DNA of 64,000 bases from Bdellovibrionales bacterium GWB1_55_8 (GCA_001769835.1 MEPR01000039.1:56101-120100), one strand, 5' to 3'; numbered from the stretch's first letter, positions 2,280 through 45,847 are shown. Numbers and translations are program-made. Notes: generated by a model from the letters alone, not told the origin.

Positions 2280-4244
2280 CTATTTTACAATAAATCTTCG
2301 CGTCGAACTCCACCCGCTATCAAGATCCTTCAACTGACTTCTGACCCGCCAGTGATAGGTGCCCGCCCGAGGCTCGAAGAACGAGTAAAAGTTATTTATG
2401 ACCTGTTCGTTCACCACCGTGGTCGAAAAATCCTGATCACTGGAAACCTGAATCTGGTAGCTTTTCGTTGCAAGGGTTCTCTCCCAGGTCAGAACAAAGT
2501 CGCCGTCCAATACGGCACCATCGTCCGGCAATTTTAATACAGGGGCGGCGAGTTCGAGCGGCAGATTAACTCGCCCACTGGTGATGACGGCACCTTCCTC
2601 AAGCAAGGCAGTCACTTCGTAGCTGTATTGCCCGCTGATTGAATCAAGCAAAAAGTGCAGCCGCGGTTCAGACGTTGCGCGGTTTTTGAAGACGGCCTTG
2701 GATCCATCAAAAAGCGAAACGCGGTATTCCTTGGCCTCCAGAATGGAGTTCCATTCAATGATCAGCGGAACTTTCTGCAGTTCATCGGCAGATCGAAGAC
2801 GGGTCGAAAGCGCAGGTGTATTCACCGCCAATTTCGGCAGAATACGCGGTGCCGGAACCGGACTCGGAACGGCAATCGGAAGCGGGCTTGGAATCGCCGC
2901 AGGGGCAGCCACCGTGAACTGGAGAGTCTCGCTCCAGGGTGAGACCTGTTCGTCGGGCAATACCGACCTGATTCGCCAGAAATATCTTCCAAGGGGCAAA
3001 TCGAGCCTTAAGTTCGATTGCTCTGTTACTCGAGAGTCTTTCTGACCCTGGAAGTCAGTGGAATCACGCGCGATCTGGACTTCCGTCTTTGCCTCGCCTG
3101 GAGCACGACCCCAGGACAGGCTGATTTCCAGATCAGAGACCTCGCTAGTCAGGGTCGTGAAACGCGAGTTGTTCGCCGGTGCCATCGGTTGAGGAGCAGC
3201 AAGGCCCAGAACGGAAAAGGTCATCCAGGAACTGGTGATCTGTTTTTGATCCGGGCTGTCGAACGCAAGCCGCCATTGGTATTTACCCGGTCTGACAGAA
3301 AGCGTTGCCTTCGCGCTCTCCGGATCGACCCTTTGTTTTGTCTTGTGATTTGTTTCAGTCTCTTGCACTTCCAGCGATAGCGTTGCTCCGGGAGGAACCC
3401 TGTCGATCGCTTCCCACTCGAATTCCGCGGGAAACGATTCTGCGATCGCCGGGTTGATGTATCGAGCTTCGCCACTTCCAGGCCTCAAGGGTCGCAGCGA
3501 TACATCATAGACCCGGGTTTCCTGCTCTTTCTGAATGACGGCAGTATGGCCTGCCGCCACCACCACCGCGGCTTTCGGCATCGCCGAGTCAGGCTTTTCC
3601 TCGGTGATCTTGATCTGCGACTCCGAACCGGTCGTTAACTGCAGTCCGCCGGCGGATTTCGGATCGACACTCAGTTCCACTGAGCTATTCGCTGAAACGG
3701 ATTCCAGCTTGTAATCCGTGTTGTTCGATTTGATTCTCAAGGGCGCCATCTTCGGTGTCAGCCGCAGTTTTACCTGGCCTTGCTTGATTTCCACAGTATG
3801 GCGAGCGGGGCCTGCCGCCGATCGATCCGCAAGGCGCGCCAGCCAACCCGATTTGACAGCCGCCCGTTCCTCCTGCTGAATCGTGATCAACGAATGAGGC
3901 GTGATCGCAATTTCAGAACCGGACGCCAGGCGAACGAGCGCGTGACCGGATTCTCCGGTGAAAACCGTATCTCCCAGTGCAACCTGATACTCCTGGTCCC
4001 CGATATCTCTCCAGACCCAGCTTTTCTCGGAACGCTGGCGCACGGCACCCTTCTCTCTCCGGAGAACCCCTGCTGACTGTGAAGGATCTAAAAGAGAGGC
4101 ATCCTCATTCCAGTAGGCCCCGTCGAGAACAAGCCAAAAGCCGATCAGACCAGCGCAAAAAAGGGTGATCACCCAAGCCCAATGGAGCGGGCCTGTTTTC
4201 AACGCATGCGGCAAGGGTGCTGTTGCTAGGGTCGTCAAAGGCAC
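2280..4244 (-). CDS. Membrane-anchored FecR-domain protein with several Fn3-like/beta-sandwich repeats
   Basis: 654-aa ORF. N-terminal TM (WAWVITLFCAGLIGFWLVL), then a FecR-like segment (GDTVFTGESGHALVRLASGSEIAITPHS), then repeated ~90-aa modules with a recurring '…YxWRxRS…' signature (YFWRIRS, YQWRLAF, YHWRVRS). Confidence 0.5.
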   Translation of the reverse strand: MPLTTLATAPLPHALKTGPLHWAWVITLFCAGLIGFWLVLDGAYWNEDASLLDPSQSAGVLRREKGAVRQRSEKSWVWRDIGDQEYQVALGDTVFTGESGHALVRLASGSEIAITPHSLITIQQEERAAVKSGWLARLADRSAAGPARHTVEIKQGQVKLRLTPKMAPLRIKSNNTDYKLESVSANSSVELSVDPKSAGGLQLTTGSESQIKITEEKPDSAMPKAAVVVAAGHTAVIQKEQETRVYDVSLRPLRPGSGEARYINPAIAESFPAEFEWEAIDRVPPGATLSLEVQETETNHKTKQRVDPESAKATLSVRPGKYQWRLAFDSPDQKQITSSWMTFSVLGLAAPQPMAPANNSRFTTLTSEVSDLEISLSWGRAPGEAKTEVQIARDSTDFQGQKDSRVTEQSNLRLDLPLGRYFWRIRSVLPDEQVSPWSETLQFTVAAPAAIPSPLPIAVPSPVPAPRILPKLAVNTPALSTRLRSADELQKVPLIIEWNSILEAKEYRVSLFDGSKAVFKNRATSEPRLHFLLDSISGQYSYEVTALLEEGAVITSGRVNLPLELAAPVLKLPDDGAVLDGDFVLTWERTLATKSYQIQVSSDQDFSTTVVNEQVINNFYSFFEPRAGTYHWRVRSQLKDLDSGWSSTRRFIVK

Positions 4245-32510: not shown

Positions 32511-32609
32511 GTCTAAGATCAATTCTGATCTTGAGGCTCACCGCCCGCTAGACTGAATGTTTTGCCGCATGAAGGGGCACCACTGCTGCCGAGTGGAAAA
32601 AAGTGCCGA

Positions 32610-33173
32610 TCAGAGTGCGCGGCTCTTCAAGCCCGGCGGCCCCACTCCGTTTGAAATGACTTGAAACGGATCCCAGCTCCCGGACCAGAGTCCTTTCGAT
32701 TCAAGGAAATTCTTTGTAAAATACTCGGTTACGCGTTTGAACTCGTGGCCCCAACTTATAATCCTGGAATAAAGAGTACGGTCCCAGAACCTGCCCTTCG
32801 CGTTCGTCTTGCGGGCTCCCATGATCTGAAAGGCCAGCGCTCCTGAAAACTCCCTGAGGAAGCCCTGAAAATTCCGCTTCGCGGAAACGAAGCCCTTCGC
32901 GTCTGCTTTCACGAGCAAATGCAGGTGATTTCCCACGTTTACAGATCGATACACGCGGATCCTGTAGCGCCGGGCGCAGTCGGCCAACAGGTGTTCGAAC
33001 AATTTTGCATTCTCGCGGGTCAGAAGAGACCACTTCCCTTGCGCGCGGCTGGACCGCAGGACGAGATAGATCGGGTGCTTATGGCTGAACGGACGAGCCA
33101 CCTTTCTTCGCCCCTGACGTACCCCTCCCCCATGCTCGAGACGAAGGGATGGCAGAAATGAAGCCTGTTTCAT
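32610..33173 (-). CDS. tnpA: IS200/IS605-family Y1 HUH transposase (TnpA/RAYT-like)
   Basis: HUH motif NHLHLLVKA plus a C-terminal RAYT-like FWDRTLYSRIISWGHEF (catalytic Tyr region). Start at MKQASFLP (33173). The ORF-track start at 33284 would read through the upstream palindrome. Confidence 0.75.
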   Translation of the reverse strand: MKQASFLPSLRLEHGGGVRQGRRKVARPFSHKHPIYLVLRSSRAQGKWSLLTRENAKLFEHLLADCARRYRIRVYRSVNVGNHLHLLVKADAKGFVSAKRNFQGFLREFSGALAFQIMGARKTNAKGRFWDRTLYSRIISWGHEFKRVTEYFTKNFLESKGLWSGSWDPFQVISNGVGPPGLKSRAL

Positions 33174-33174
33174 G

Positions 33175-33192
33175 ACCGGATATATATCCGGT
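33175..33192 (-). promoter_or_regulatory. 18-bp perfect palindrome ACCGGATATATATCCGGT, 2 nt upstream of the tnpA ATG. Likely the IS200-type left-end hairpin, which would occlude the RBS.
   Basis: Seen directly in the sequence. IS200 elements carry such hairpins, serving as TnpA recognition sites and translational repressors. Confidence 0.5.
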
Positions 33193-33376
33193 TCAGTTAA
33201 CCGTGTAAAGACGTTTGTTACGGGTGAACGCTGGGGCAATGGTATTTTGATCGTACAAACACTGATGGAAACAAGGTCTGTCACATCTATTCTGCTAACT
33301 GACCCTGGATTTTTCTCGACCTTGTCAAAGCGCCATGAAAGCCGATGCTGTCGCGGAGCCTTTCAATAGGTAAGCT

Positions 33377-33577
33377 TCAGTTTTTGCGATCACATAAGTC
33401 TTGAGCATTCGGCTCATTTTTTCGGCAGACATTATCGATCGTGTCCCAGCAACCACCCGAGTCCAGACACGAGTCCTGCTTCATCCACGTACATGCATTC
33501 AGAGCAGATACCAGGAGCAAGCATGCTGAGATCAGCATCATCGAGAAAAGCCGTCCGTTCGCCCTACTCCGGGTCAT
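33377..33577 (-). CDS. Small secreted Cys-rich lipoprotein, 66 aa with 7 Cys
   Basis: Signal peptide plus lipobox (LLVSALNAC), then a Cys-rich mature peptide CTWMKQDSCLDSGGCWDTIDNVCRKNEPNAQDLCDRKN. Overlaps the start of the upstream kinase gene by 4 nt. Confidence 0.4.
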   Translation of the reverse strand: MTRSRANGRLFSMMLISACLLLVSALNACTWMKQDSCLDSGGCWDTIDNVCRKNEPNAQDLCDRKN

Positions 33578-34071
33578 TCAAAGGCCTTCTTCTTGATCAG
33601 ATCAGCGATCTCGTCCGGACTCATGTTGTCGGTCTTGATCTCAAACCCAAGCGCACCGTTCAAAAATCTTCCTCTCTGATTTCGTTCCACTTCCTGGGTT
33701 TCAGAAACTTCCCTCTCGGCTTGCGGTCGTCCACGTTTCAGAATCCGAGCGGAGAGACTCCGAGTTTCAGCTGAAAGATAGAACACACGGGCAGGCTCGC
33801 CCACTCTCTGAATGAAATCTTCCATCAGGTCAGGACTCAAAAACAGGCTATCGAATACGATCGTCCTTGCGCCCAGGCGGCGATAAGCGCTGATCAGATC
33901 ACAGGCGACATTCAAGGCAAGTTTCTGTCGCGACTGCGTGGCAATCAAATTATCCGAAACGAACCCGAGAACGTCGCCTTCAATATACGCGGCATCGTCC
34001 AACTGGCATAGCAGAGTCCTTGCCACCCAGGTTTTTCCAACGCCCACGGTGCCGTTTACGATGATGAGCAT
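33574..34071 (-). CDS. Small P-loop kinase (AAA_33/gluconokinase-sized NTP-binding protein)
   Basis: 165 aa with Walker A NGTVGVGKT at residues 6-14 and a Walker B-like hydrophobic strand plus D (IVFDSLF). Confidence 0.55.
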   Translation of the reverse strand: MLIIVNGTVGVGKTWVARTLLCQLDDAAYIEGDVLGFVSDNLIATQSRQKLALNVACDLISAYRRLGARTIVFDSLFLSPDLMEDFIQRVGEPARVFYLSAETRSLSARILKRGRPQAEREVSETQEVERNQRGRFLNGALGFEIKTDNMSPDEIADLIKKKAFE

Positions 34072-34197
34072 GTCTCAATCGTAAGTAGCGGCAGCCCGCC
34101 CGTCGAGCTAAAAAATACCGGAGCTCCATGCGAAAACATCGAAGTAAGAATCGCCGATGTCTTCGCATGAAGTTCCGGGTTCGAATTCACTGCAGTC

Positions 34198-34653
34198 CTA
34201 TTCGGACTTCTGTTGTACACATCTGATGTTCTGCTGATCGACTGTTTCAATGAACTCATCCACAAGGTCTTCGAGGTGTGAAACGATCTTGTGCCGAAGG
34301 TCAGGAGTGTCATCGAAGTACCTTACTTTTTTCCCTCGATCAGAAAGCGTGCTGAATACCGTCACGCCATTCGATTTCACGGCCTTAAGCCAGATTCTGT
34401 TCCTGAAAAAACTGGCACAAGACACCACGCCGCACTTTGCAAGCCCGGTCCACCCTGTGTAGTAATCCGTCTCAAGGAATATATGAGCAGGCACTCCCTG
34501 CGGCACCACATGATAGCCCTTCGTTAACAAGTGTTGCTGAGCCCATGTGTCATCGGTTGAGATCGTGCAGTTTAACGATGGACCGTCTTTCGCGTACGCT
34601 GATGAGACCGCGACCAAGCAGATTCCAACGATAGCCATAATTTTGCCGTTCAT
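34198..34653 (-). CDS. Hypothetical secreted protein
   Basis: Signal peptide MNGKIMAIVGICLVAVSSAYA. 4 Cys in the mature part. Low local GC. Confidence 0.4.
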   Translation of the reverse strand: MNGKIMAIVGICLVAVSSAYAKDGPSLNCTISTDDTWAQQHLLTKGYHVVPQGVPAHIFLETDYYTGWTGLAKCGVVSCASFFRNRIWLKAVKSNGVTVFSTLSDRGKKVRYFDDTPDLRHKIVSHLEDLVDEFIETVDQQNIRCVQQKSE

Positions 34654-34888
34654 ATGTTCTCCATTTTCTTCTTCCGGTTCAGCCCGGAAGCGAAAACGAG
34701 AATACGCCGCAATAGTCCAGGTCTCCGCTGACATCCTCTGACGTAAAGTAACATACGGAATTCACGAAAGAATCGCGATTCCTGCCGACCCTGCTCTACT
34801 TCGGCGCACCCTTGAAATTATCGGCCGGCTATGAGCATATGGCCCTCGTCGACTTGCACAATTCCAAACTTTTAGCGTCTCTATCGAG

Positions 34889-36268
34889 GTGATCCGGATG
34901 AGAGCTTTGTTCATCACACTTCCATTTCTGTTCATCGGCATAAACTCGGCCACTGCCGATGTTCTTCCGATTCAGGCAAACTACGTTTCGACGCGGGCCC
35001 AGGAAGGAATCATGTCTTTCGACCATTTCGTCGAGTTCAACGCGGATGCGAGGCAATCCGACACGGCACTTCAGGGCTGGGCGCGGCAGGCGATTGAAAA
35101 GCAGCTCATGTTTCTGATCGGTTCAATGAGGTGGCACTTCTCCGTTCCGAAGGGCGATCACAAAATCACGGAGCTGCGCCTTGCCCCGAAAAGCGCACAG
35201 GGTGTGACGATGATCGCCTCTTACCATTACGAGGGAACCGTTCAGATCCGCGAGGACGTACCCCTTCCGCTCAGGCTCGTGCTTCCGAATAACCCCTATC
35301 GGTTTTACTGGGACGGTCTCGTGCGAGATGGCTTCAAAATAAGCGCGCCTTGCACGCAGAAGCATTATCGTTGGCCGAGCGACCTGTTTTATTTCTGGCA
35401 CCCTTACGCTCCCGCGTGTCCATGGAAACGCGGCGAGGACTACCAGGAGATCCAGCCTGAAATCGTTTTAAAAAATAACGACGAAACGACCTATCCGGAA
35501 TACGACCGGCTTGTCGACCCCGCCACCCGTACGATCTCGATGTGGATACTTGTCGGACCTGCCAGCAACAAATCCATGAATCCGATGACCTCTCCTGATA
35601 TCAATGCGCAGACTTTCTGTGAATTCCGGGAACATTTCCTGCGTAAGGGATTTTCTTCACGGCGTTGGACCTCCAAAGAAATCCGCAGGAAGGGGAACAC
35701 CCTCTTCGCGAAACTCCCTTGGGTCGAGGATTTCGAAAAACAAGGCGCCCGATCCCGTATCCTGATCCACGCATTCTATGGCCATACCGCGGTGAAGGAT
35801 TTCAGCCGCGCTTTTTACCACTTTCTTGAGGACGGGGTCGAGAACGCCTCAATGGTGGTGTACGCAGGACATGCAGGATTGGGCAAAACCCTTGCACCTT
35901 CCGTAGCGGAAAAGATCGGGCTACTCAGGATGCGACCCAATCGGGATCGCTACCAGATCTATTTCTTCAACGGATGCAGCACTTACGCTTATTACACGCA
36001 ACCCTACTTCACGCGTAAAGCGAGCGCTTTGGATCCAGAAGGCACAAAGAACCTCGACATCATCACAACCGGCCTGGCCACAGGCGAGGACTTCCTCGGG
36101 AGTAGTTCACTCGCCGCGATCGATGCTGTGACGGACTGGGCTGATGGCGGTGCTGCCGCAAGTTATCAGGAAATCCTGAAACGCGCAGGTGGTTCCAATT
36201 TGCTGAGCGTCAGCGGAGATGAAGACAATCCGTCATCTCCGCAAAAACCCTTCCAAACGCGCGATTAA
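34889..36268 (+). CDS. Secreted protein with a putative clan-CD (caspase/clostripain/gingipain-like) cysteine peptidase His-Cys dyad
   Basis: Signal peptide (LFITLPFLFIGINSATA). The C-terminal half has a hydrophobic strand plus GH (MVVYAGHAGLG) followed ~40 aa later by a hydrophobic strand plus xC (QIYFFNGCSTYAYY), the arrangement typical of CD-clan peptidases. Confidence 0.4.
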   Translation: MIRMRALFITLPFLFIGINSATADVLPIQANYVSTRAQEGIMSFDHFVEFNADARQSDTALQGWARQAIEKQLMFLIGSMRWHFSVPKGDHKITELRLAPKSAQGVTMIASYHYEGTVQIREDVPLPLRLVLPNNPYRFYWDGLVRDGFKISAPCTQKHYRWPSDLFYFWHPYAPACPWKRGEDYQEIQPEIVLKNNDETTYPEYDRLVDPATRTISMWILVGPASNKSMNPMTSPDINAQTFCEFREHFLRKGFSSRRWTSKEIRRKGNTLFAKLPWVEDFEKQGARSRILIHAFYGHTAVKDFSRAFYHFLEDGVENASMVVYAGHAGLGKTLAPSVAEKIGLLRMRPNRDRYQIYFFNGCSTYAYYTQPYFTRKASALDPEGTKNLDIITTGLATGEDFLGSSSLAAIDAVTDWADGGAAASYQEILKRAGGSNLLSVSGDEDNPSSPQKPFQTRD

Positions 36269-38455
36269 CAGGTCTAAAATCGAAATTCTATCCTTTGAGA
36301 CTGGCTCCCCGATTCTCCCCTTTTCGAGTTCCGCAAGCTCCCGCGCCTTCAATGTACGAACCGCCTGCTCGGCTTTCGATCGATCGCTGGCAAGCGCCGC
36401 TTCAGCGGACTTGGCAAGAGCCGTATCCGATTGGATCAATTCCTTTTCCCGTCTGAGCTCATCGTCTGAAGGCACCCGCCTTGTTCTGAATTCTGGTTCT
36501 GCGGGAAGTGTAAGTTCCACTTTACTCAGCCAGACGTCAGAAGGAGCACCGGTTCTCGCAGAAGGAGCGAGACAACTTGGGTCTGCGGAGAAAATATTGA
36601 AACTCAGGAAACTTCGATCGGGGGAAAGCGACATCTGAACGTCCAGCTTCGCGTCCCGATGTGATGCAAGCCACAGGGATTTCGGTGTTCTTGAGAAAGA
36701 CGATTTGCAGTTCCTGAATTGAATGGTGCCACTCCACGAGTCAGGTTTGATGGTCAGATCAGCACTGAAATCGCGGCGCGATACCTGGACCTTCACCACA
36801 CCAGCAGCGGCATCGCAGTTCACCTTGAGTTTCACATCAGCAAATTTTTGGCCGTTCGGAACTTCCCCGGCGGAAGCATAATGGGCGATCTCCGGCTTCT
36901 TCGGATCAAAGTCGCGTCTCTCAATCCGCACCTTCTTGGGATGTCCTTTTTTATCGAAAAGGTCAGGATCAGAACAGTAGAGCCTGTAAATCTCTTTCGC
37001 ATCGCGAGATTTCAGACCCCGCGATTTTATGAGATCCGGGAAACGCATACCGGCGGTTTGGATGACTCCGGAAATATCCTCGATCGACTCCGCGCGAATG
37101 ACACCGCCCCCTTCTTTTCGGATAGCCAGATAGACGTTCCCTAGCGAGTCTTTGATTCCGGTTTCCTTGCACCCAACATGACTGCGGTAGAGGCTGAAAT
37201 ACGGGGAGTTATAGTAACCCTCCTTCGCTATACCGCCGACATCACCACCGCCGCCTTTGCCGACATCACCACCGCCGCCTTTGCCGACATCACCACCGCC
37301 GCCTTTGCCGACATCACCACCGCCGCCTTTGCCGACATCACCACTGAACCTCAGTCCAGATGACGAATCCACAAACGGACTCGGACACACGGATTGAAAC
37401 CGTTCCGTAGTAGCGCCGACACGAAAAGTGATCTCGGGCGTGCCCACAGCTCCACCTGGTGTTTGTGTCACCGTCCGGTCGTAGTAATACGGAGACCCTT
37501 CTGCTTTCGAGACATCAAGCCCATTCATGAGCCCTGGAAGGGCCTCATTGATGGTCTCGATCGGAACCGCGACGGACTGGGTTTCGTTCAAGAACGTCTT
37601 CAGAAGTATTCCAGAGAGGAAAGTTTTCGATTCGAAGATCTCACTGGTTCCGCTTCGGGGTACCAAAACGGTGTAAATAATCGGACTGCCACTCATGCCT
37701 GGCCGGACACCCTGCTTCGGCAATAGGACTGCGCTCCTACTCCCGATAAGCGGATGCTCTGCAGCTTGGGTCGCGAGCTCGATTTGCACGGGAAAACGAT
37801 TGGGGATCACCTTCAATCCATCTTCAGTCACTCGTGCGAGATGCAGATTTTCCCGATTGACGAAATCCGCCGCTGTTTGGATGTAATGGCTGCCTTCTGG
37901 CAGCCAGTTTTCGCGATTAATGGGAAGCAGGTGGCGAACTTCAGCCACGGGCAGTTTGAAACCATCCCAAACAAATAAGGGCGTCAGGTCCGAAACAATC
38001 TTCTCTAATTCCAGGACCGCGAGATCCTTCGTCTGGCTGATACCGCGAACTTTTGCCTGAACAACTTTCCCCCCGCAGCGGACCTGGACCTTTTCGGCGC
38101 CTGCGACCACGTGTGCGGCGGTCAAAACGAACAGATGTTTTGGTTCATTGGCCGATTTAAAGACAGAGCCTTGCCCAATCGAGGACAGCGAGTCTTTACC
38201 GGACTGCCTCTGCCCCTCGATCTCGACTACTTCGCACCGGTCCAGAACCGGGGCGTTGTTCGCGATTCGATCCAGCCATCTCACCAGCTCCGGCTCAAGG
38301 AGCGCCTCGCCTGACAAGCCACTATTGCAACAAGGGTCCGCAGTCACTGGCGAAGATGAGCCAGACAAAGCCATTGCAGGGATCATCGATCCCGCGACGC
38401 CGAAGAGAATAGTGAGCACTCGCAGTGGAAAACTGCACATCGTTCGTTTATTCAT
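36233..38455 (-). CDS. Large secreted trypsin-like (S1 family) serine protease with an internal (GDVGKGGG)n tandem repeat and a C-terminal coiled coil
   Basis: Signal peptide MNKRTMCSFPLRVLTILFGVAGSMIPAMA. Catalytic His (VLTAAHVVAG), Asp (KDLAVLEL) and Ser (GMSGSPII) in S1 order. Repeats GDVGKGGG ×4.5, then …ELRREKELIQSDTALAKSAEAALASDRSKAEQAVRTLKARELAELEK. Start chosen at the signal-peptide Met. Confidence 0.6.
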   Translation of the reverse strand: MNKRTMCSFPLRVLTILFGVAGSMIPAMALSGSSSPVTADPCCNSGLSGEALLEPELVRWLDRIANNAPVLDRCEVVEIEGQRQSGKDSLSSIGQGSVFKSANEPKHLFVLTAAHVVAGAEKVQVRCGGKVVQAKVRGISQTKDLAVLELEKIVSDLTPLFVWDGFKLPVAEVRHLLPINRENWLPEGSHYIQTAADFVNRENLHLARVTEDGLKVIPNRFPVQIELATQAAEHPLIGSRSAVLLPKQGVRPGMSGSPIIYTVLVPRSGTSEIFESKTFLSGILLKTFLNETQSVAVPIETINEALPGLMNGLDVSKAEGSPYYYDRTVTQTPGGAVGTPEITFRVGATTERFQSVCPSPFVDSSSGLRFSGDVGKGGGGDVGKGGGGDVGKGGGGDVGKGGGGDVGGIAKEGYYNSPYFSLYRSHVGCKETGIKDSLGNVYLAIRKEGGGVIRAESIEDISGVIQTAGMRFPDLIKSRGLKSRDAKEIYRLYCSDPDLFDKKGHPKKVRIERRDFDPKKPEIAHYASAGEVPNGQKFADVKLKVNCDAAAGVVKVQVSRRDFSADLTIKPDSWSGTIQFRNCKSSFSRTPKSLWLASHRDAKLDVQMSLSPDRSFLSFNIFSADPSCLAPSARTGAPSDVWLSKVELTLPAEPEFRTRRVPSDDELRREKELIQSDTALAKSAEAALASDRSKAEQAVRTLKARELAELEKGRIGEPVSKDRISILDLLIARLEGFLRR
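37222..37345. repeat. Perfect 24-bp tandem repeat (GACATCACCACCGCCGCCTTTGCC) ×4, plus one partial copy at each end (about 5.3 copies), in-frame within the S1 protease gene
   Basis: Seen directly: …gccgacatcaccaccgccgcctttgcc ×4 …gacatcaccactgaa. Encodes GDVGKGGG units on the minus strand. Confidence 0.9.
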
Positions 38456-38534
38456 CGGCATAACCTGGTGACTTCCTAAGTATTCTTTGTCTGCTTGCCG
38501 ATAAGAGTCCTGGAGGGCTCCCGGGAGCTGCGTC

Positions 38535-39728
38535 ATGAAACATAAATACGGCTCTACTGCTCTGAACAAGAGCCCAACACTGAGGAGCAGCGAACTTTCG
38601 GCGATCTACTACTCGCTGGTCGAGATGATCTTGCAAGGCCGCTATGAAGCAACGGCGGAAGCCCTGAACCAACTTCGTCGTGGAAGCCCGTTCACGCATG
38701 ACGATAACGAAGCTATTCGCAGATTGATTGCCGCGCGCCTCGCGATAAAACAAGGCGATGCTGGTGAGGACACATCCTGGCTGGATATTCCAGTTCCGGA
38801 GAATTCCTGGCTTGCTGCTGAAAAGGAAATTGTAAAAGGTCATTGGGAGTATCACCTGCAGAACTTTCCGATGGGCATCACGCACTTTAAGGAGGCGGAG
38901 CGCCAATTCAAAAACCTGGGAATGCTCGATCGGGAGTTCCTCAGCGCTTTCAATCAAATCATCGGCGAAGTCAGTGGCCCCTCTCAGCTCCCCCCCCTTC
39001 AGCAGATCGATCAGCTTCGGCAGTTGGAGATCCGAGTCCGACAGCACCTCGAGAAAGTGGGCTGCGTGCGAGTTCAGGCGCTGATTCATCGACAAAAATC
39101 TCACGCATTTGAGGACCTGACCCTGTTCCACGCGGCGGTGGAAGAGATATCAAAAGCGATACAAATACTGGAGCTTCACGGGCCAGCCTCGGACTATCAA
39201 CTGGCCCTGCTTCAGGCTGCCGACCTGAGCCTGGATTTAGGTGACCAGTTCCGGGGTCGCACCTTTTTCGAATACGTCATTCCACCGCTCGATAAGAGAG
39301 TTGAATTTCCTCATGCCTACATAGCCTGGCGATTGGGCGGACCGCTTCCCGAGCAATCCAATTTTGAAATCCTGCCCGGCGGATGGAAGGAAAAGTTCGA
39401 GAAATTGAGAGCATCCCTCACTCCCGATAACAGTACTCCTCACGAATGGACCTGGAATCTCACCTCAGGTGAGATTCAAAGCCCTGAGCTTCTCAAACCC
39501 ATTCAACTCAAACCAGCAAGCCTGGAAGGGCGCCTCGTACAGATGTTGACCCGCAACAAGGCAACGAAGAACCTTCTAATTGAATCTTTCTGGCCCGGGC
39601 AAAGCGACAGACAGTTACTGGACAACCGCCTGCACAGGATGATCTCCCGCTTGAACAAAAAGTTGTCGAACCTCATCGAGTTTGACGGGAAAAGTTATCG
39701 TCTCAAGCGGCGATTACGGACTAAATGA
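38535..39728 (+). CDS. Atypical transcriptional regulator: N-terminal helical/TPR-like domain and C-terminal OmpR/PhoB-type winged-helix DNA-binding domain, with no receiver domain
   Basis: C-terminus …LEGRLVQMLTRNKATKNLLIESFWPGQSDRQLLDNRLHRMISRLNKKLSNLIEFDGKSYRLK matches the trans_reg_C pattern (LT..E..LL..L…vWg…..ld..i.rLRkKL…i.tvrg.GY.L). Divergently transcribed from the protease gene. Confidence 0.5.
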   Translation: MKHKYGSTALNKSPTLRSSELSAIYYSLVEMILQGRYEATAEALNQLRRGSPFTHDDNEAIRRLIAARLAIKQGDAGEDTSWLDIPVPENSWLAAEKEIVKGHWEYHLQNFPMGITHFKEAERQFKNLGMLDREFLSAFNQIIGEVSGPSQLPPLQQIDQLRQLEIRVRQHLEKVGCVRVQALIHRQKSHAFEDLTLFHAAVEEISKAIQILELHGPASDYQLALLQAADLSLDLGDQFRGRTFFEYVIPPLDKRVEFPHAYIAWRLGGPLPEQSNFEILPGGWKEKFEKLRASLTPDNSTPHEWTWNLTSGEIQSPELLKPIQLKPASLEGRLVQMLTRNKATKNLLIESFWPGQSDRQLLDNRLHRMISRLNKKLSNLIEFDGKSYRLKRRLRTK

Positions 39729-39799
39729 AAGAAATGCCGCCACTCTTCTTCTCGAAGAGGGCGGCATTCTCATGAACGGCTAAATAAACTCCTAGAGCA

Positions 39800-40642
39800 T
39801 CAAAGGACTGAGTCGGAACCCGGAACGCTGACACCCGCTTTGGTGAAATAGGCCTGAAAATCAGCTTCAGAGACTTCCTCGCCGTTGATTTCATACTTGG
39901 TTTCTGTTCCATCGAAGGACTGTTTCAACTCCGCCGAAAAATCCGCATACTCAAGTTTGAGGGCCACGGAGCCGCTGCCATCGGCCTCTGTGCTGCTGAA
40001 TTCCATTTCCACATCGGCTTGCAGTTCGAATTTCACATCACCCTTGGTCTGCGAGTGGACATCGCCCTTAACCTCGCCCTCGATCACGATCGAACCACCG
40101 CTCGTGGAGGTCGTTGCTTTGACTGCGATCTCGCCCGAAAGGTCGAACTTGTCGACATCGTTCAGCTTGCGGAATTCGTCGTCTTTCACTTCGTATTTCA
40201 GCGTGGCGGCGACCTTGGCTTCCGTTTCGCTGCCTGAGCCCTTCATTTCGATATTCATCGAAATCGGGCAGGACACATCAGGCTTGTCGGAAACCTGAAT
40301 TTTGATATTGAAGCTGGTGGCGCTCGTCGAAACAGGTACCGAATAGTCCACCTGACAAAGTTCGTCTGCCAGCTTCTCCTGCATTTCAATGGTGGTGGGA
40401 TCCGTCGTGAGCGCTGCCGAACGTGATCCAGCCGTGCCACTGAGAAAGGACAGCGCATGGAACCGGTTCACAACAGGAAGGGCGAGCGTTGCCGGCGCGC
40501 CAGGAACCGATTGATGAGTGCGGCCCGCGCTTTCGATTGTTGCCGACACGATGGCCTTCTGCTCATCTGTCAGCTTCTTTTGTCCACAACCAGTCACGAC
40601 GAGTGCCATCAGCACGGATACAAGCACAAATGCGTTTCTCAT
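39800..40642 (-). CDS. Hypothetical lipoprotein
   Basis: Lipobox LMALVVTGC. S/T/E/K-rich repetitive beta-rich mature domain. Confidence 0.5.
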   Translation of the reverse strand: MRNAFVLVSVLMALVVTGCGQKKLTDEQKAIVSATIESAGRTHQSVPGAPATLALPVVNRFHALSFLSGTAGSRSAALTTDPTTIEMQEKLADELCQVDYSVPVSTSATSFNIKIQVSDKPDVSCPISMNIEMKGSGSETEAKVAATLKYEVKDDEFRKLNDVDKFDLSGEIAVKATTSTSGGSIVIEGEVKGDVHSQTKGDVKFELQADVEMEFSSTEADGSGSVALKLEYADFSAELKQSFDGTETKYEINGEEVSEADFQAYFTKAGVSVPGSDSVL

Positions 40643-40803
40643 GAGATCTCCTTTTATTTGCAGGGATCATAAGGAAGGAAACGCAAATTCACAAGCTGAC
40701 GCTTCAGCGAAAGACGCATTCGCCTTACGTCTTATTCTGAAGTTATTCAGTTGACAGCCTTGAGCCGTAACCACTCACGGATGACAGTGGATGGATTCCC
40801 TGC

Positions 40804-44146: not shown

Positions 44147-45847
44147 TTATGCCGTTGCCGATGCCGACGGGGACCGCTTATTACCGTCTTCGTCGGATTT
44201 CTTGCGTGAGGTATCCAGTACCATCCAGTCCTTGATGATCAAGGCTGCCTTGTGCGGATTGGAATCGACGAGAGTGATCACCTTCTCGCGAATCATCTCG
44301 CCTTCGGTCTTCTCAGGATCCATCTTCTCCGGAATCACGGGAACCGCCTCCTCAAGCCCCGGCAGATTGCCGCTGGTCTGAAGTCTTTCGAGTTCCTCGA
44401 TTGTCTGAGGCAGGAAGGTATCGACGCTGTCGATCGTGTTCTCGGTGAGCCACTTCATGAAAGGACGAACCACGAGGAAGAAGAAGAGCGCGATCGTAAG
44501 ACCCACTACCGCGTAGAGGATCATGTTCTGCAGATAGCTCTTCCGCTCTTTCTCGGCGACGATCTTCTGGGCTTCATCGAAATCCTCGCGCGTGAACTCC
44601 ATGGTCTTGACCTCAAGCGCGTCGCCGCGCTTGCGATCAATGCCGACGGTGCTTGCGACGATGGATTCGAACTCAGCGAGCTTCTCTGCCGACCAGGGCT
44701 CAACCTTGCTCAGGGTCTTTCCATCCTCGCCTACGGTCTTCACGGTCTTTCCATCCACCATGACCGCCACTGAAAGACGCTTCACGGTACCCGACGGGCG
44801 GGTAGTGCGACGAATGGTTTTGGGCACTTCGTAATTGACGACTTCGTTACTCTTGGTCGTCTCGTTGCGGATGGCGCCATTCGCGGCCGGCAATTCACCT
44901 GGCGTGTTCGAAACGGCTCCCGCCACCCCGTAAGGGCCGGGGCGAGTGCCGCTCATGTTGTCATTTCGCTTCTGGACGGAAAGAACAGCCGACCCGTCCG
45001 CATCGACGAAAGTCTGGGTTTCAGCAACCTGAGAGAAGTCGAGTTCCGCCGATACTTTCGCCACGACGTGCCCCTCGCCTACCACTCGCGAAAGAATCGA
45101 CTCGATCCGCTTTTCCATCTCGGATTCGACCTTCGTCTGGAAATCGAGCTGGGTTGCCGTGGCGGCGGCCAGCGGGTCCGAGGGGTTTTTCGAGAGCGTC
45201 TTGCCGTTCGAATCCACGATCACGACGTCGGCGACTTCCATGCCCTCGACAGCACGGGCCACGAGGTTCGCGATGCCATAAACCTGCTTGTCATTCAGGA
45301 CAACACCCGGCTCCAGATCCAGAACCACTGATGCCGTGGATTTCTTCTGGTCTTCCACGAATGTGCTCTTCTGAGGCGTCGCCAGATGGACACGCGAGCG
45401 GCGTACGCCCTTGATCGAGGCAATCGACCGCATGAGTTCGCCCTCGAGGGCGCGCTTCTGATTGACCTTCTGGACAAAACTCGTGGTACCGAGCGACTGC
45501 TTGTCGAAAACCTCATAACCGATCGTGCTCGACTGCGGAAGCCCCATGGTCGCAAGCTCGAGGCGCAGCTGATAGATGTCTTCCGAAGGAACCAGGACGT
45601 TCTTGCCAGTCTGGTCCATCTTGAACGGGATCCGCTTTTCGCGAAGAACACGAATGATGTTACTGGCATCCTCCGGATTCAGATTGGTCATGAGAGGGGT
45701 GTAAGTCGTCTCTCCCGCCCAGAAGAAAAGCGCCGAAAGGCCCACGATGATTCCGGCCGTGGTCATGCCGACCGCGACCTTCTTCACCGGACTCAAGCCC
45801 TTCAGAAACTCGTCGATCTGCCCGAAGATTTTCTTGAAATATTCCAT
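44147..45847 (-). CDS. fliF: Flagellar MS-ring protein FliF
   Basis: 566 aa with an N-terminal TM, a YscJ/FliF domain (…RIPFKMDQTGKNVLVPSEDIYQLRLELATMGLP…) and a C-terminal TM. Confidence 0.9.
   Translation of the reverse strand: MEYFKKIFGQIDEFLKGLSPVKKVAVGMTTAGIIVGLSALFFWAGETTYTPLMTNLNPEDASNIIRVLREKRIPFKMDQTGKNVLVPSEDIYQLRLELATMGLPQSSTIGYEVFDKQSLGTTSFVQKVNQKRALEGELMRSIASIKGVRRSRVHLATPQKSTFVEDQKKSTASVVLDLEPGVVLNDKQVYGIANLVARAVEGMEVADVVIVDSNGKTLSKNPSDPLAAATATQLDFQTKVESEMEKRIESILSRVVGEGHVVAKVSAELDFSQVAETQTFVDADGSAVLSVQKRNDNMSGTRPGPYGVAGAVSNTPGELPAANGAIRNETTKSNEVVNYEVPKTIRRTTRPSGTVKRLSVAVMVDGKTVKTVGEDGKTLSKVEPWSAEKLAEFESIVASTVGIDRKRGDALEVKTMEFTREDFDEAQKIVAEKERKSYLQNMILYAVVGLTIALFFFLVVRPFMKWLTENTIDSVDTFLPQTIEELERLQTSGNLPGLEEAVPVIPEKMDPEKTEGEMIREKVITLVDSNPHKAALIIKDWMVLDTSRKKSDEDGNKRSPSASATA

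What the first reader, a model, noticed from the sequence alone, without database searches (positions are those of the whole stretch)
37222..37345. Perfect 24-bp tandem repeat, about 5.3 copies, in-frame inside the secreted S1 protease gene
The unit GACATCACCACCGCCGCCTTTGCC repeats with no nucleotide divergence and encodes (GDVGKGGG)n. Perfect repeats of this kind are recent. They are also classic substrates for slipped-strand or recombinational copy-number change. Each unit is 24 bp, so copy-number change keeps the frame. The result would be length polymorphism in a glycine-rich linker between the protease domain and the C-terminal domain.
Basis: seen in the sequence. Interest (0 to 1): 0.55.

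Follow-up and report, generated by a model that had tools for sequence, protein, structure and literature searches.

The report
Recently expanded glycine-motif repeat in protease
A perfect 24-base repeat (4.6 copies) sits in frame inside a secreted HtrA-like protease gene of a groundwater Bdellovibrionales bacterium; it is a recent amplification of a short glycine-rich motif that the whole uncharacterised protein family carries at that spot, and its copy number differs between public assemblies, although assembler error could also cause that.

Summary
The repeat is real, but it spans 37235-37344 and has 4.6 copies, not 5.3. The period is 24 bp, the units are 100% identical, and it is the only strong tandem repeat in the window. 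It lies in frame in a minus-strand gene (36233-38461, 742 aa). That gene encodes a signal peptide, an HtrA-like S1 protease domain with an intact His/Asp/Ser triad, the repeat (GDVGKGGG x4 + GDVGG), an unknown C-terminal domain and a helical tail.

Three near-identical public contigs from the same aquifer carry 4.6, 3.6 and 1.6 copies and otherwise encode the same protein. All are short-read assemblies, and a de Bruijn simulation shows that 1.6 and 3.6 are the counts a collapsed assembly would give. True polymorphism is therefore plausible but unproven.

The 47%-identical orthologue has a decayed 2.2-copy, 24-bp repeat at the same site. About 60 remote relatives share a GG[DS][WY]G[DE]GGG motif there, and roughly a third carry it 2-6 times in tandem. 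In five relatives the repeated peptides are identical while the DNA differs only synonymously. The motif is therefore selected, not free linker, even though AlphaFold2 predicts the segment to be disordered.

Verdict: an ordinary in-frame coding minisatellite at a conserved, recurrently duplicated motif in an uncharacterised protease family.

The parts
37235..37344 (-). Perfect tandem repeat: period 24 bp, 4.58 copies. The coding-strand unit GGTGATGTCGGCAAAGGCGGCGGT encodes GDVGKGGG x4 followed by GDVGG (protein residues 374-410).
   Evidence: TRF; exact pattern search with 0 matches expected by chance; unit-by-unit translation; coordinates checked.
36233..38461 (-). Protease gene, 742 aa plus stop. 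The ATG start (MPMNKRT...) is the one used by public gene calls; the longest ORF would start at a TTG at 38569.
   Evidence: ORF list; identical products P0005, P0001 and P0006 in public assemblies; translation check.
38369..38461 (-). Probable Sec signal peptide, residues 1-31 (KR n-region, hydrophobic core, AMA-LS).
   Evidence: Read by eye from the translation. No signal-peptide predictor was available, so this is inference.
37526..38236 (-). HtrA/DegP-like S1 protease domain, residues about 76-312. Catalytic residues: His117 (38111-38113), Asp146 (38024-38026), Ser257 (37691-37693, in GMSGSP).
37226..37360 (-). Predicted disordered inter-domain segment, residues 368-412, which contains the whole repeat.
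   Evidence: AlphaFold2 with a 59-sequence alignment: overall pLDDT 77 and pTM 0.73, but 27-34 across this segment.
36497..37225 (-). C-terminal, mostly beta domain of unknown function, residues 413-655. It is conserved across the family and includes conserved cysteines C431, C496 and C549.
   Evidence: Exhaustive HMMER hits span both domains; alignment A2; no Pfam, NCBIfam or PDB sequence match; confident AF2 strands.
36239..36466 (-). Three long C-terminal helices, residues 666-741. They are present in the window protein and its orthologue.
   Evidence: AF2 secondary structure H666-690, H694-713, H720-741; alignment A1.
38535..39728 (+). Divergently transcribed 397-aa gene. It is a conserved neighbour of this protease family and is weakly TPR-like.
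   Evidence: Homologues lie next to family members in L004, L006, L010 and L013. Weak TPR hits in the homologues. Weak Rap-phosphatase similarity, E 0.02.

Best explanation
The array is an in-frame coding minisatellite. A 24-bp segment encodes this protein family's conserved glycine-rich motif (family consensus GGDWGxGGG, here GDVGKGGG). That segment was recently amplified, or re-homogenised, to 4.6 identical copies, most likely by replication slippage or unequal recombination between neighbouring units.

The array lies in a predicted disordered segment between the HtrA-like protease domain and the C-terminal domain of a secreted protein from a groundwater Bdellovibrionales bacterium. Because every unit is 24 bp, gain or loss of units keeps the reading frame. 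It changes only how many motif copies the protein carries and how long the inter-domain tether is.

Shown: the repeat itself, its frame, its position in the domain layout, its homology to an older repeat in the orthologue and to a family-wide motif, and copy-number differences among public assemblies. Inferred: the slippage mechanism, that the differences between assemblies are biological, and any functional effect of copy number.
For: The repeat is perfect, has period 24 and is unique in the window.

It is in frame in a gene with an invariant catalytic triad and an HtrA fold.

Otherwise identical proteins carry 4, 3 or 1 full units in independent contigs from the same aquifer. The flanking DNA of these contigs is 99.85-99.96% identical.

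The SNP at 36646 separates the two 4.6-copy assemblies (G) from the 3.6- and 1.6-copy ones (A). L002 differs at 18 further sites near its contig end. The contigs therefore represent different genotypes.

The 47%-identical orthologue has a 24-bp-period repeat at the same site with 2.2 copies and 89% matches, so the repeat is older than the split and has been renewed in this lineage.

About 21 of 59 aligned family members carry the motif 2-6 times, with unit lengths of 6 to 10 residues. This implies repeated independent duplications at this site.

One relative (L012) has two DNA-identical units, a second example of a recent duplication.

The segment is predicted to be disordered.
Against: All copy-number evidence comes from short-read assemblies; reads in the L003 project are 150 bp (PMC10118389).

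The shortest de Bruijn path through a 110-bp array gives 38 bp (1.58 copies) at the k values tested up to 39 and 86 bp (3.58 copies) at k 79-81. These are exactly the two shorter 'alleles'.

For the same arithmetic reason, 110 bp is the length a k of about 87-110 assembler would give for a longer array, so even 4.6 could be a lower bound.

Only four assemblies exist and no reads could be inspected.

The orthologue, whose units are diverged, shows no variation across 9 contigs. That fits both slippage and the assembler artefact.

No experiment links copy number to function.
Confidence: 0.6

Rival explanations
1. The repeat is real, but the copy-number differences are assembly artefacts. The population has one fixed array length, possibly 4.6 copies or more, and de Bruijn assemblers traversed the repeat loop a minimal number of times at some k step.
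For: The simulation gives 1.58 copies at the k values tested up to 39, 2.58 at k 41-61, 3.58 at k 79-81 and 4.58 at k 99 and above for this sequence. The variant contigs have de Bruijn style names (k141_, k127_, scaffold_). Reads are 150 bp, which barely spans 110 bp. Tandem repeats are a documented source of assembly error (PMC6868369, listed).
Against: Two independent assemblies agree on 4.6 copies (window and L003). A contig finished at k=141 should have resolved a 110-bp array if spanning reads existed, so a 38-bp version there needs either real reads or carry-over from low-k rounds. The shorter versions share the SNP 36646A, which the 4.6-copy versions lack, so they do come from different genotypes.
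Confidence: 0.4
2. The glycine-rich unit is a functional short linear motif, not a spacer. It could be an autoprocessing or cleavage site with the hydrophobic residue as P1, or a binding or metal site. Copy number would then set the motif's valency, which selection keeps in some lineages and slippage varies in others.
For: The motif GG[DS][WY]G[DE]GGG is conserved at this position in nearly all of 59 family members, while the surrounding spacer varies greatly in length. In L008, L009 and L010 the three peptide units are identical while the DNA is 75-81% identical. All 26 minimal substitutions are synonymous, against 24% synonymous sites (P about 1e-16). L011 and L013 show the same pattern.
Against: The arrays tested were chosen because their peptides looked perfect, which is an ascertainment bias. 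P0089/L006 and the orthologue do show amino-acid differences between units. The window's unit has Val and Lys where the family has Trp/Tyr and Asp/Glu, so it is an atypical copy of the motif. AF2 gives no structure or contact for the segment. No biochemical evidence exists.
Confidence: 0.35
3. The array is an RTX-like calcium-binding beta-roll repeat that marks a type I secretion substrate.
For: The units are glycine-rich and contain aspartate, and they sit in a secreted protein. RTX repeats are glycine- and aspartate-rich (PMC3034196, listed).
Against: The period is 8 residues, not 9. No register of GGGGDVGK fits GGxGxDxUx (read from the sequence). The protein has an N-terminal signal peptide rather than a C-terminal T1SS signal. 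There are fewer than five units. AF2 predicts disorder, not a beta-roll. No RTX or HemolysinCabind Pfam hit appeared in any of 59 members.
Confidence: 0.03

Closest known systems
Variable-number 24-bp repeats of the Xr region of Staphylococcus aureus protein A (spa typing) and the SD-repeat regions of staphylococcal Clf/Sdr adhesins
   Same: Both are in-frame minisatellites; spa units are also 24 bp and encode octapeptides. They sit in a low-complexity spacer of an exported protein. Copy number changes by slippage or recombination without breaking the frame. This rests on my own knowledge for spa; SD repeats are covered in PMC3324548 and a general review in PMC3899988.
   Different: In those cases variation is documented in cultured isolates and the units differ by point mutations. 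Here the units are all identical, the host is an uncultured Bdellovibrionales bacterium, the protein is a protease rather than an adhesin, and variation is seen only between short-read assemblies.
HtrA/DegP/DegQ/DegS family of S1C serine proteases
   Same: Same chymotrypsin-fold protease domain with a His-Asp-Ser triad.
   Different: No PDZ domain was detected. Instead there is a beta module, the glycine-motif segment, a novel C-terminal domain and a helical tail. Sequence similarity is remote: Pfam Trypsin_2 scores 27.8-28.0 bits against a 27.6 cut-off, and NCBIfam HtrA/DegP/MarP models score far below their cut-offs.
RTX nonapeptide repeats
   Same: Tandem glycine/aspartate-rich units in a secreted bacterial protein.
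   Different: The period (8 versus 9), the consensus, the secretion signal and the predicted structure all differ. See the membership test.

Membership tests
S1 (chymotrypsin-fold) serine protease, HtrA-like (S1C) | His-Asp-Ser catalytic triad in the canonical order | tested here: met
   H117 (TAAHVV), D146 (DLAVLE) and S257 (GMSGSP) are invariant in 59 aligned family members.
S1 (chymotrypsin-fold) serine protease, HtrA-like (S1C) | Two-beta-barrel chymotrypsin fold closest to HtrA proteases | tested here: met
S1 (chymotrypsin-fold) serine protease, HtrA-like (S1C) | One or more C-terminal PDZ domains (typical of HtrA/DegP/DegQ/DegS) | tested here: not met
   No PDZ hit in Pfam for any of 59 members or in NCBIfam. 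PDB profile matches stop at the end of the protease domain. The protein is therefore HtrA-like in its protease domain but not a canonical HtrA.
S1 (chymotrypsin-fold) serine protease, HtrA-like (S1C) | Passes a curated family model threshold | tested here: inconclusive
   Pfam Trypsin_2 scores 27.8-28.0 bits against a cut-off of 27.6, which is barely met, and only residues 103-163 match. All NCBIfam HtrA/DegP/MarP models score 16-30 bits against cut-offs of 250-756.
Coding variable-number tandem repeat (in-frame minisatellite) | Head-to-tail identical units whose length is a multiple of three, inside an ORF | tested here: met
   Period 24, 100% identity, in frame.
Coding variable-number tandem repeat (in-frame minisatellite) | Copy number differs between strains or within a population | tested here: inconclusive
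   Near-identical contigs carry 4.58, 4.58, 3.58 and 1.58 copies. The shorter values equal de Bruijn collapse products and reads could not be examined.
Phase-variable contingency locus | Repeat change switches expression on and off (frameshift or promoter spacing) | tested here: not met
   The unit is 24 bp, so all observed variants stay in frame and encode full-length protein. The array is in the middle of the gene, not in a promoter.
RTX calcium-binding repeat | Nonapeptide GGxGxDxUx units, usually five or more, forming a beta-roll | tested here: not met
   The unit is 8 residues and no register fits the consensus. The segment is predicted disordered. No member has an RTX Pfam hit.

The most novel reading that the evidence does not exclude
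The glycine-rich unit may be the working part of a previously undescribed module shared by an uncharacterised protease family, which so far has been seen in Bdellovibrionales MAGs and unassigned metagenome contigs. It could be a short linear motif, for example the site where the protease is cut or docks, or the source of a released peptide. Its number of copies would be tuned by duplication and slippage. The protease would act together with the conserved neighbouring TPR-type protein as a secreted-protease/regulator pair. The window would then show this tuning caught in the act within one aquifer population.
Probability: 0.15. Interest if true: 0.6.

Novelty: new member of a known kind. Interest (0 to 1): 0.38.

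Why it matters
On its own this is one more in-frame minisatellite in a secreted bacterial protein, which is a well-known kind of mutable site. It carries two practical lessons.

First, the public protein databases already hold three length variants of this protein. These may be assembler products, so repeat counts in metagenome-assembled genomes should not be taken at face value.

Second, following the repeat exposed an uncharacterised family of about 60 clusters at 50% identity, all labelled hypothetical. Members have an HtrA-like protease domain, a conserved GGDWGxGGG-type motif, a novel C-terminal domain and a conserved TPR-like neighbour. The motif has been duplicated many times independently and is kept by selection. 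If the copy-number variation is real, this locus would be a simple marker for strain tracking in the Rifle aquifer and a natural experiment on what the motif does.

Tried and rejected
(1) Chance: rejected, with 0 matches to the unit in 100 shuffles.

(2) A feature of the + strand: the 61-aa + strand ORF 37178-37363 across the array is antisense to a conserved gene and has no support. No promoter or terminator signal exceeded the shuffled expectation.

(3) RTX repeat: rejected; see the membership test.

(4) Word-indexed protein search. The first search found only the protein's own cluster and the orthologue. A search with the 59-sequence alignment found only 3 proteins, probably because glycine-rich words swamped the candidate list. 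The exhaustive HMMER search was what revealed the family.

(5) Genome and metagenome scans with the two-sequence alignment returned only the orthologue, L004 and L005, which are identical in the gene. They yielded no further alleles of the window gene.

(6) The first AF2 run, with 2 sequences, was unusable (pLDDT 39). The 59-sequence run worked.

(8) Sample identity of the contigs could not be resolved. I established only that PRJNA268031 is the Rifle aquifer time series with 150-bp reads.

(9) The by-eye impression that the 397-aa neighbour ends in an OmpR-type winged helix got no support from Pfam, NCBIfam or PDB searches.

Full report
OBSERVATION. Tandem Repeats Finder reports a single array at 37235..37344 with period 24, 4.6 copies, 100% matches and no indels. 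It is by far the strongest tandem repeat in the window: score 220, against 54 or less for the other five weak rows. The sequence shows that 37222-37234 is not repeat.

THE GENE. The array lies in a minus-strand ORF. Three public assemblies call the product from the ATG at 38461, giving 742 aa. From the N-terminus the protein has the following parts:
- A signal-peptide-like start (read by eye).
- A protease domain with His117, Asp146 and Ser257. These residues are invariant in a 59-sequence family alignment.
- A small beta module.
- The repeat, at residues 374-410: GDVGKGGG x4 followed by GDVGG.
- A mostly beta C-terminal domain.
- Three long helices.

COPY NUMBER IN OTHER ASSEMBLIES. The protein's 90%-identity cluster holds otherwise identical proteins of 742, 734 and 718 aa. 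Their contigs are 99.85-99.96% identical to the window in the flanks and carry the following:

| Locus | Record name | Full units |
|---|---|---|
| L003 | k127_ contig from SRR1658462 / PRJNA268031 | 4 |
| L001 | ANAN16-1 scaffold_75 | 3 |
| L002 | k141_ contig | 1 |

The two 4-unit sequences have G at 36646, and the 3- and 1-unit sequences have A. L002 also differs at 18 sites near its contig end. The assemblies therefore sample slightly different genotypes.

THE CAVEAT. PRJNA268031 is the Rifle aquifer series with 150-bp reads (PMC10118389), and all four sequences are short-read assemblies. I built de Bruijn graphs of the window region and took the shortest path through the repeat loop:

| k values tested | Array length | Copies | Matches |
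|---|---|---|---|
| 21-39 | 38 bp | 1.58 | L002 |
| 41-61 | 62 bp | 2.58 | none observed |
| 79-81 | 86 bp | 3.58 | L001 |
| 99 and above | 110 bp | 4.58 | window, L003 |

Both shorter 'alleles' are therefore what a collapse at a common k step would produce. By the same arithmetic, 110 bp is what a k of about 87-110 assembler would give for a longer array. Two independent assemblies agreeing on 4.6 copies, and the linked SNP, argue for biology. The k-mer arithmetic argues for caution. I put true polymorphism at roughly even odds, slightly better. Tandem repeats are a recognised cause of such database errors (PMC6868369).

HOMOLOGUES. The only close relative is 47% identical (Bdellovibrionales RIFOXYC1_FULL_54_43 and RIFOXYD1_FULL_55_31). 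It has a 24-bp-period repeat at the aligned position, with 2.2 copies and 89% matches, encoding NVGKGGSG DSGKGGSG DSGS. Its nine contigs all encode one protein sequence. The repeat therefore predates the split of the two lineages. It has decayed in one lineage and been freshly amplified or homogenised in the other.

THE FAMILY. An exhaustive HMMER search of 1.84 billion representatives found 120 hits at E of 1e-3 or better, 31 of them at 1e-10 or better. These include about 55 full-length proteins of 560-800 aa that match both the protease domain and the C-terminal domain.

The alignment consensus reads ...ExC....SxW......GGDWGxGGG.....Y.....C...G... The window's repeat aligns to the GGDWGxGGG motif. 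Nearly every member has the motif, after a spacer of very variable length.

About 21 of 59 members have the motif 2-6 times in tandem, with unit lengths of 6, 7, 8, 9 or 10 residues. Examples:
- GGGSWGDSG x3.2
- GGTGDAGNG x3
- KDWGGSGT x3
- WTDGVGA x5.9
- EGTNGNGA x3.9

The different unit lengths and registers imply many independent duplications at the same spot.

All members that carry a source name are 'hypothetical protein', and most come only from metagenome assemblies.

SELECTION ON THE UNITS. I fetched DNA for eight relatives.
- In L008, L009 and L010 the three peptide units are identical while the DNA units are only 75-81% identical. All 26 minimal substitutions are synonymous, although only 24% of sites are synonymous (P about 1e-16).
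- L011 and L013 show the same pattern.
- L012 has two DNA-identical units next to a diverged one, which marks a recent duplication like the window's.
- L006 (and the same gene in L007) and the orthologue show both synonymous and amino-acid differences.

The perfect-peptide arrays were picked because they looked perfect, so the P value is inflated. The pattern still shows that old copies are maintained at the protein level. The segment is thus more than free linker, even though AF2 gives it pLDDT 27-34, that is, predicts it to be disordered. The window's unit is an atypical version of the motif, with Val and Lys in place of Trp/Tyr and Asp/Glu.

MECHANISM. Best-supported reading: a recent slippage or unequal-recombination expansion of the 24-bp motif-coding unit in a disordered inter-domain segment. 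Changes in copy number preserve the frame and alter the number of motif copies and the tether length. The expansion and its recency are shown by the sequence. The mechanism follows from established knowledge of tandem-repeat instability (review PMC3899988). The functional consequence is unknown.

A plausible but untested idea is that the motif is a processing or docking site. It places a hydrophobic residue between flexible glycines, which would make a good substrate for an HtrA-type protease, so copy number would set its valency. An RTX-type calcium-binding repeat is excluded by period, consensus and predicted structure. On/off phase variation is excluded because all variants stay in frame.

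COMPARISON AND VERDICT. The closest known phenomena are the in-frame VNTRs of exported Gram-positive proteins, namely the spa Xr 24-bp octapeptide repeats (my own knowledge) and the SD repeats (PMC3324548). The protease domain is HtrA-like but lacks the PDZ domains of canonical HtrA proteins. The finding is a new member of a known kind. It is of modest interest in itself. It is somewhat more interesting because it points to an uncharacterised protease family with a conserved, recurrently duplicated motif and a conserved TPR-like neighbour.

Noticed in passing
window 38535-39728 (+); L004 4597-5790 (-); L006 4761-5834; L010 3819-4967; L013 2435-2935: The 397-aa gene next to the protease is a conserved neighbour of this protease family in at least five loci: 34% identity and E 2e-60 to the L010 neighbour, E 1e-30 to L006, E 3e-13 to the partial L013 gene. 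It is divergent from the protease gene in the window and in L004, and co-directional just downstream (abutting or overlapping) elsewhere. It has only weak TPR hits and weak Rap-phosphatase similarity (E 0.02). Its C-terminus looks like a winged helix by eye, but no search supported that.
   Followed up: partly
window about 32600-40650: The protease gene and about six genes of unknown function sit inside a flagellar gene cluster, between fliH/fliI (up to 42285) and fliJ, the hook-length gene and flgD/flgE (from 32522 downward). The same arrangement is present in L001-L003, so it is a stable feature of this genome. The orthologue's locus L004 was not checked for flagellar genes.
   Followed up: no
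window 32610-33284 (-): A 224-aa ORF at the edge of that inserted block has weak hits to REP-associated tyrosine transposase (E 4e-6, 26.9 bits against a cut-off of 80) and IS200 transposase. This may be a trace of how the block arrived.
   Followed up: no
window 36233-36268: The 3' ends of the protease gene (-) and the convergent 459-aa gene 34889-36268 (+) overlap by 36 bp. The 459-aa protein has no Pfam or NCBIfam hit.
   Followed up: no
L001 about 3292-3471 (window equivalent 44991-45179): The public scaffold ANAN16-1 scaffold_75 has a run of N here that splits fliF and loses fliE in its gene calls. The window and L002 are continuous across it.
   Followed up: partly
L002, window equivalent 35576-35797: There are 18 SNPs within 220 bp at the end of contig k141_554680, against about 1 per 2 kb elsewhere. 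This could be a strain-variable patch in the 459-aa gene or a chimeric contig end.
   Followed up: no
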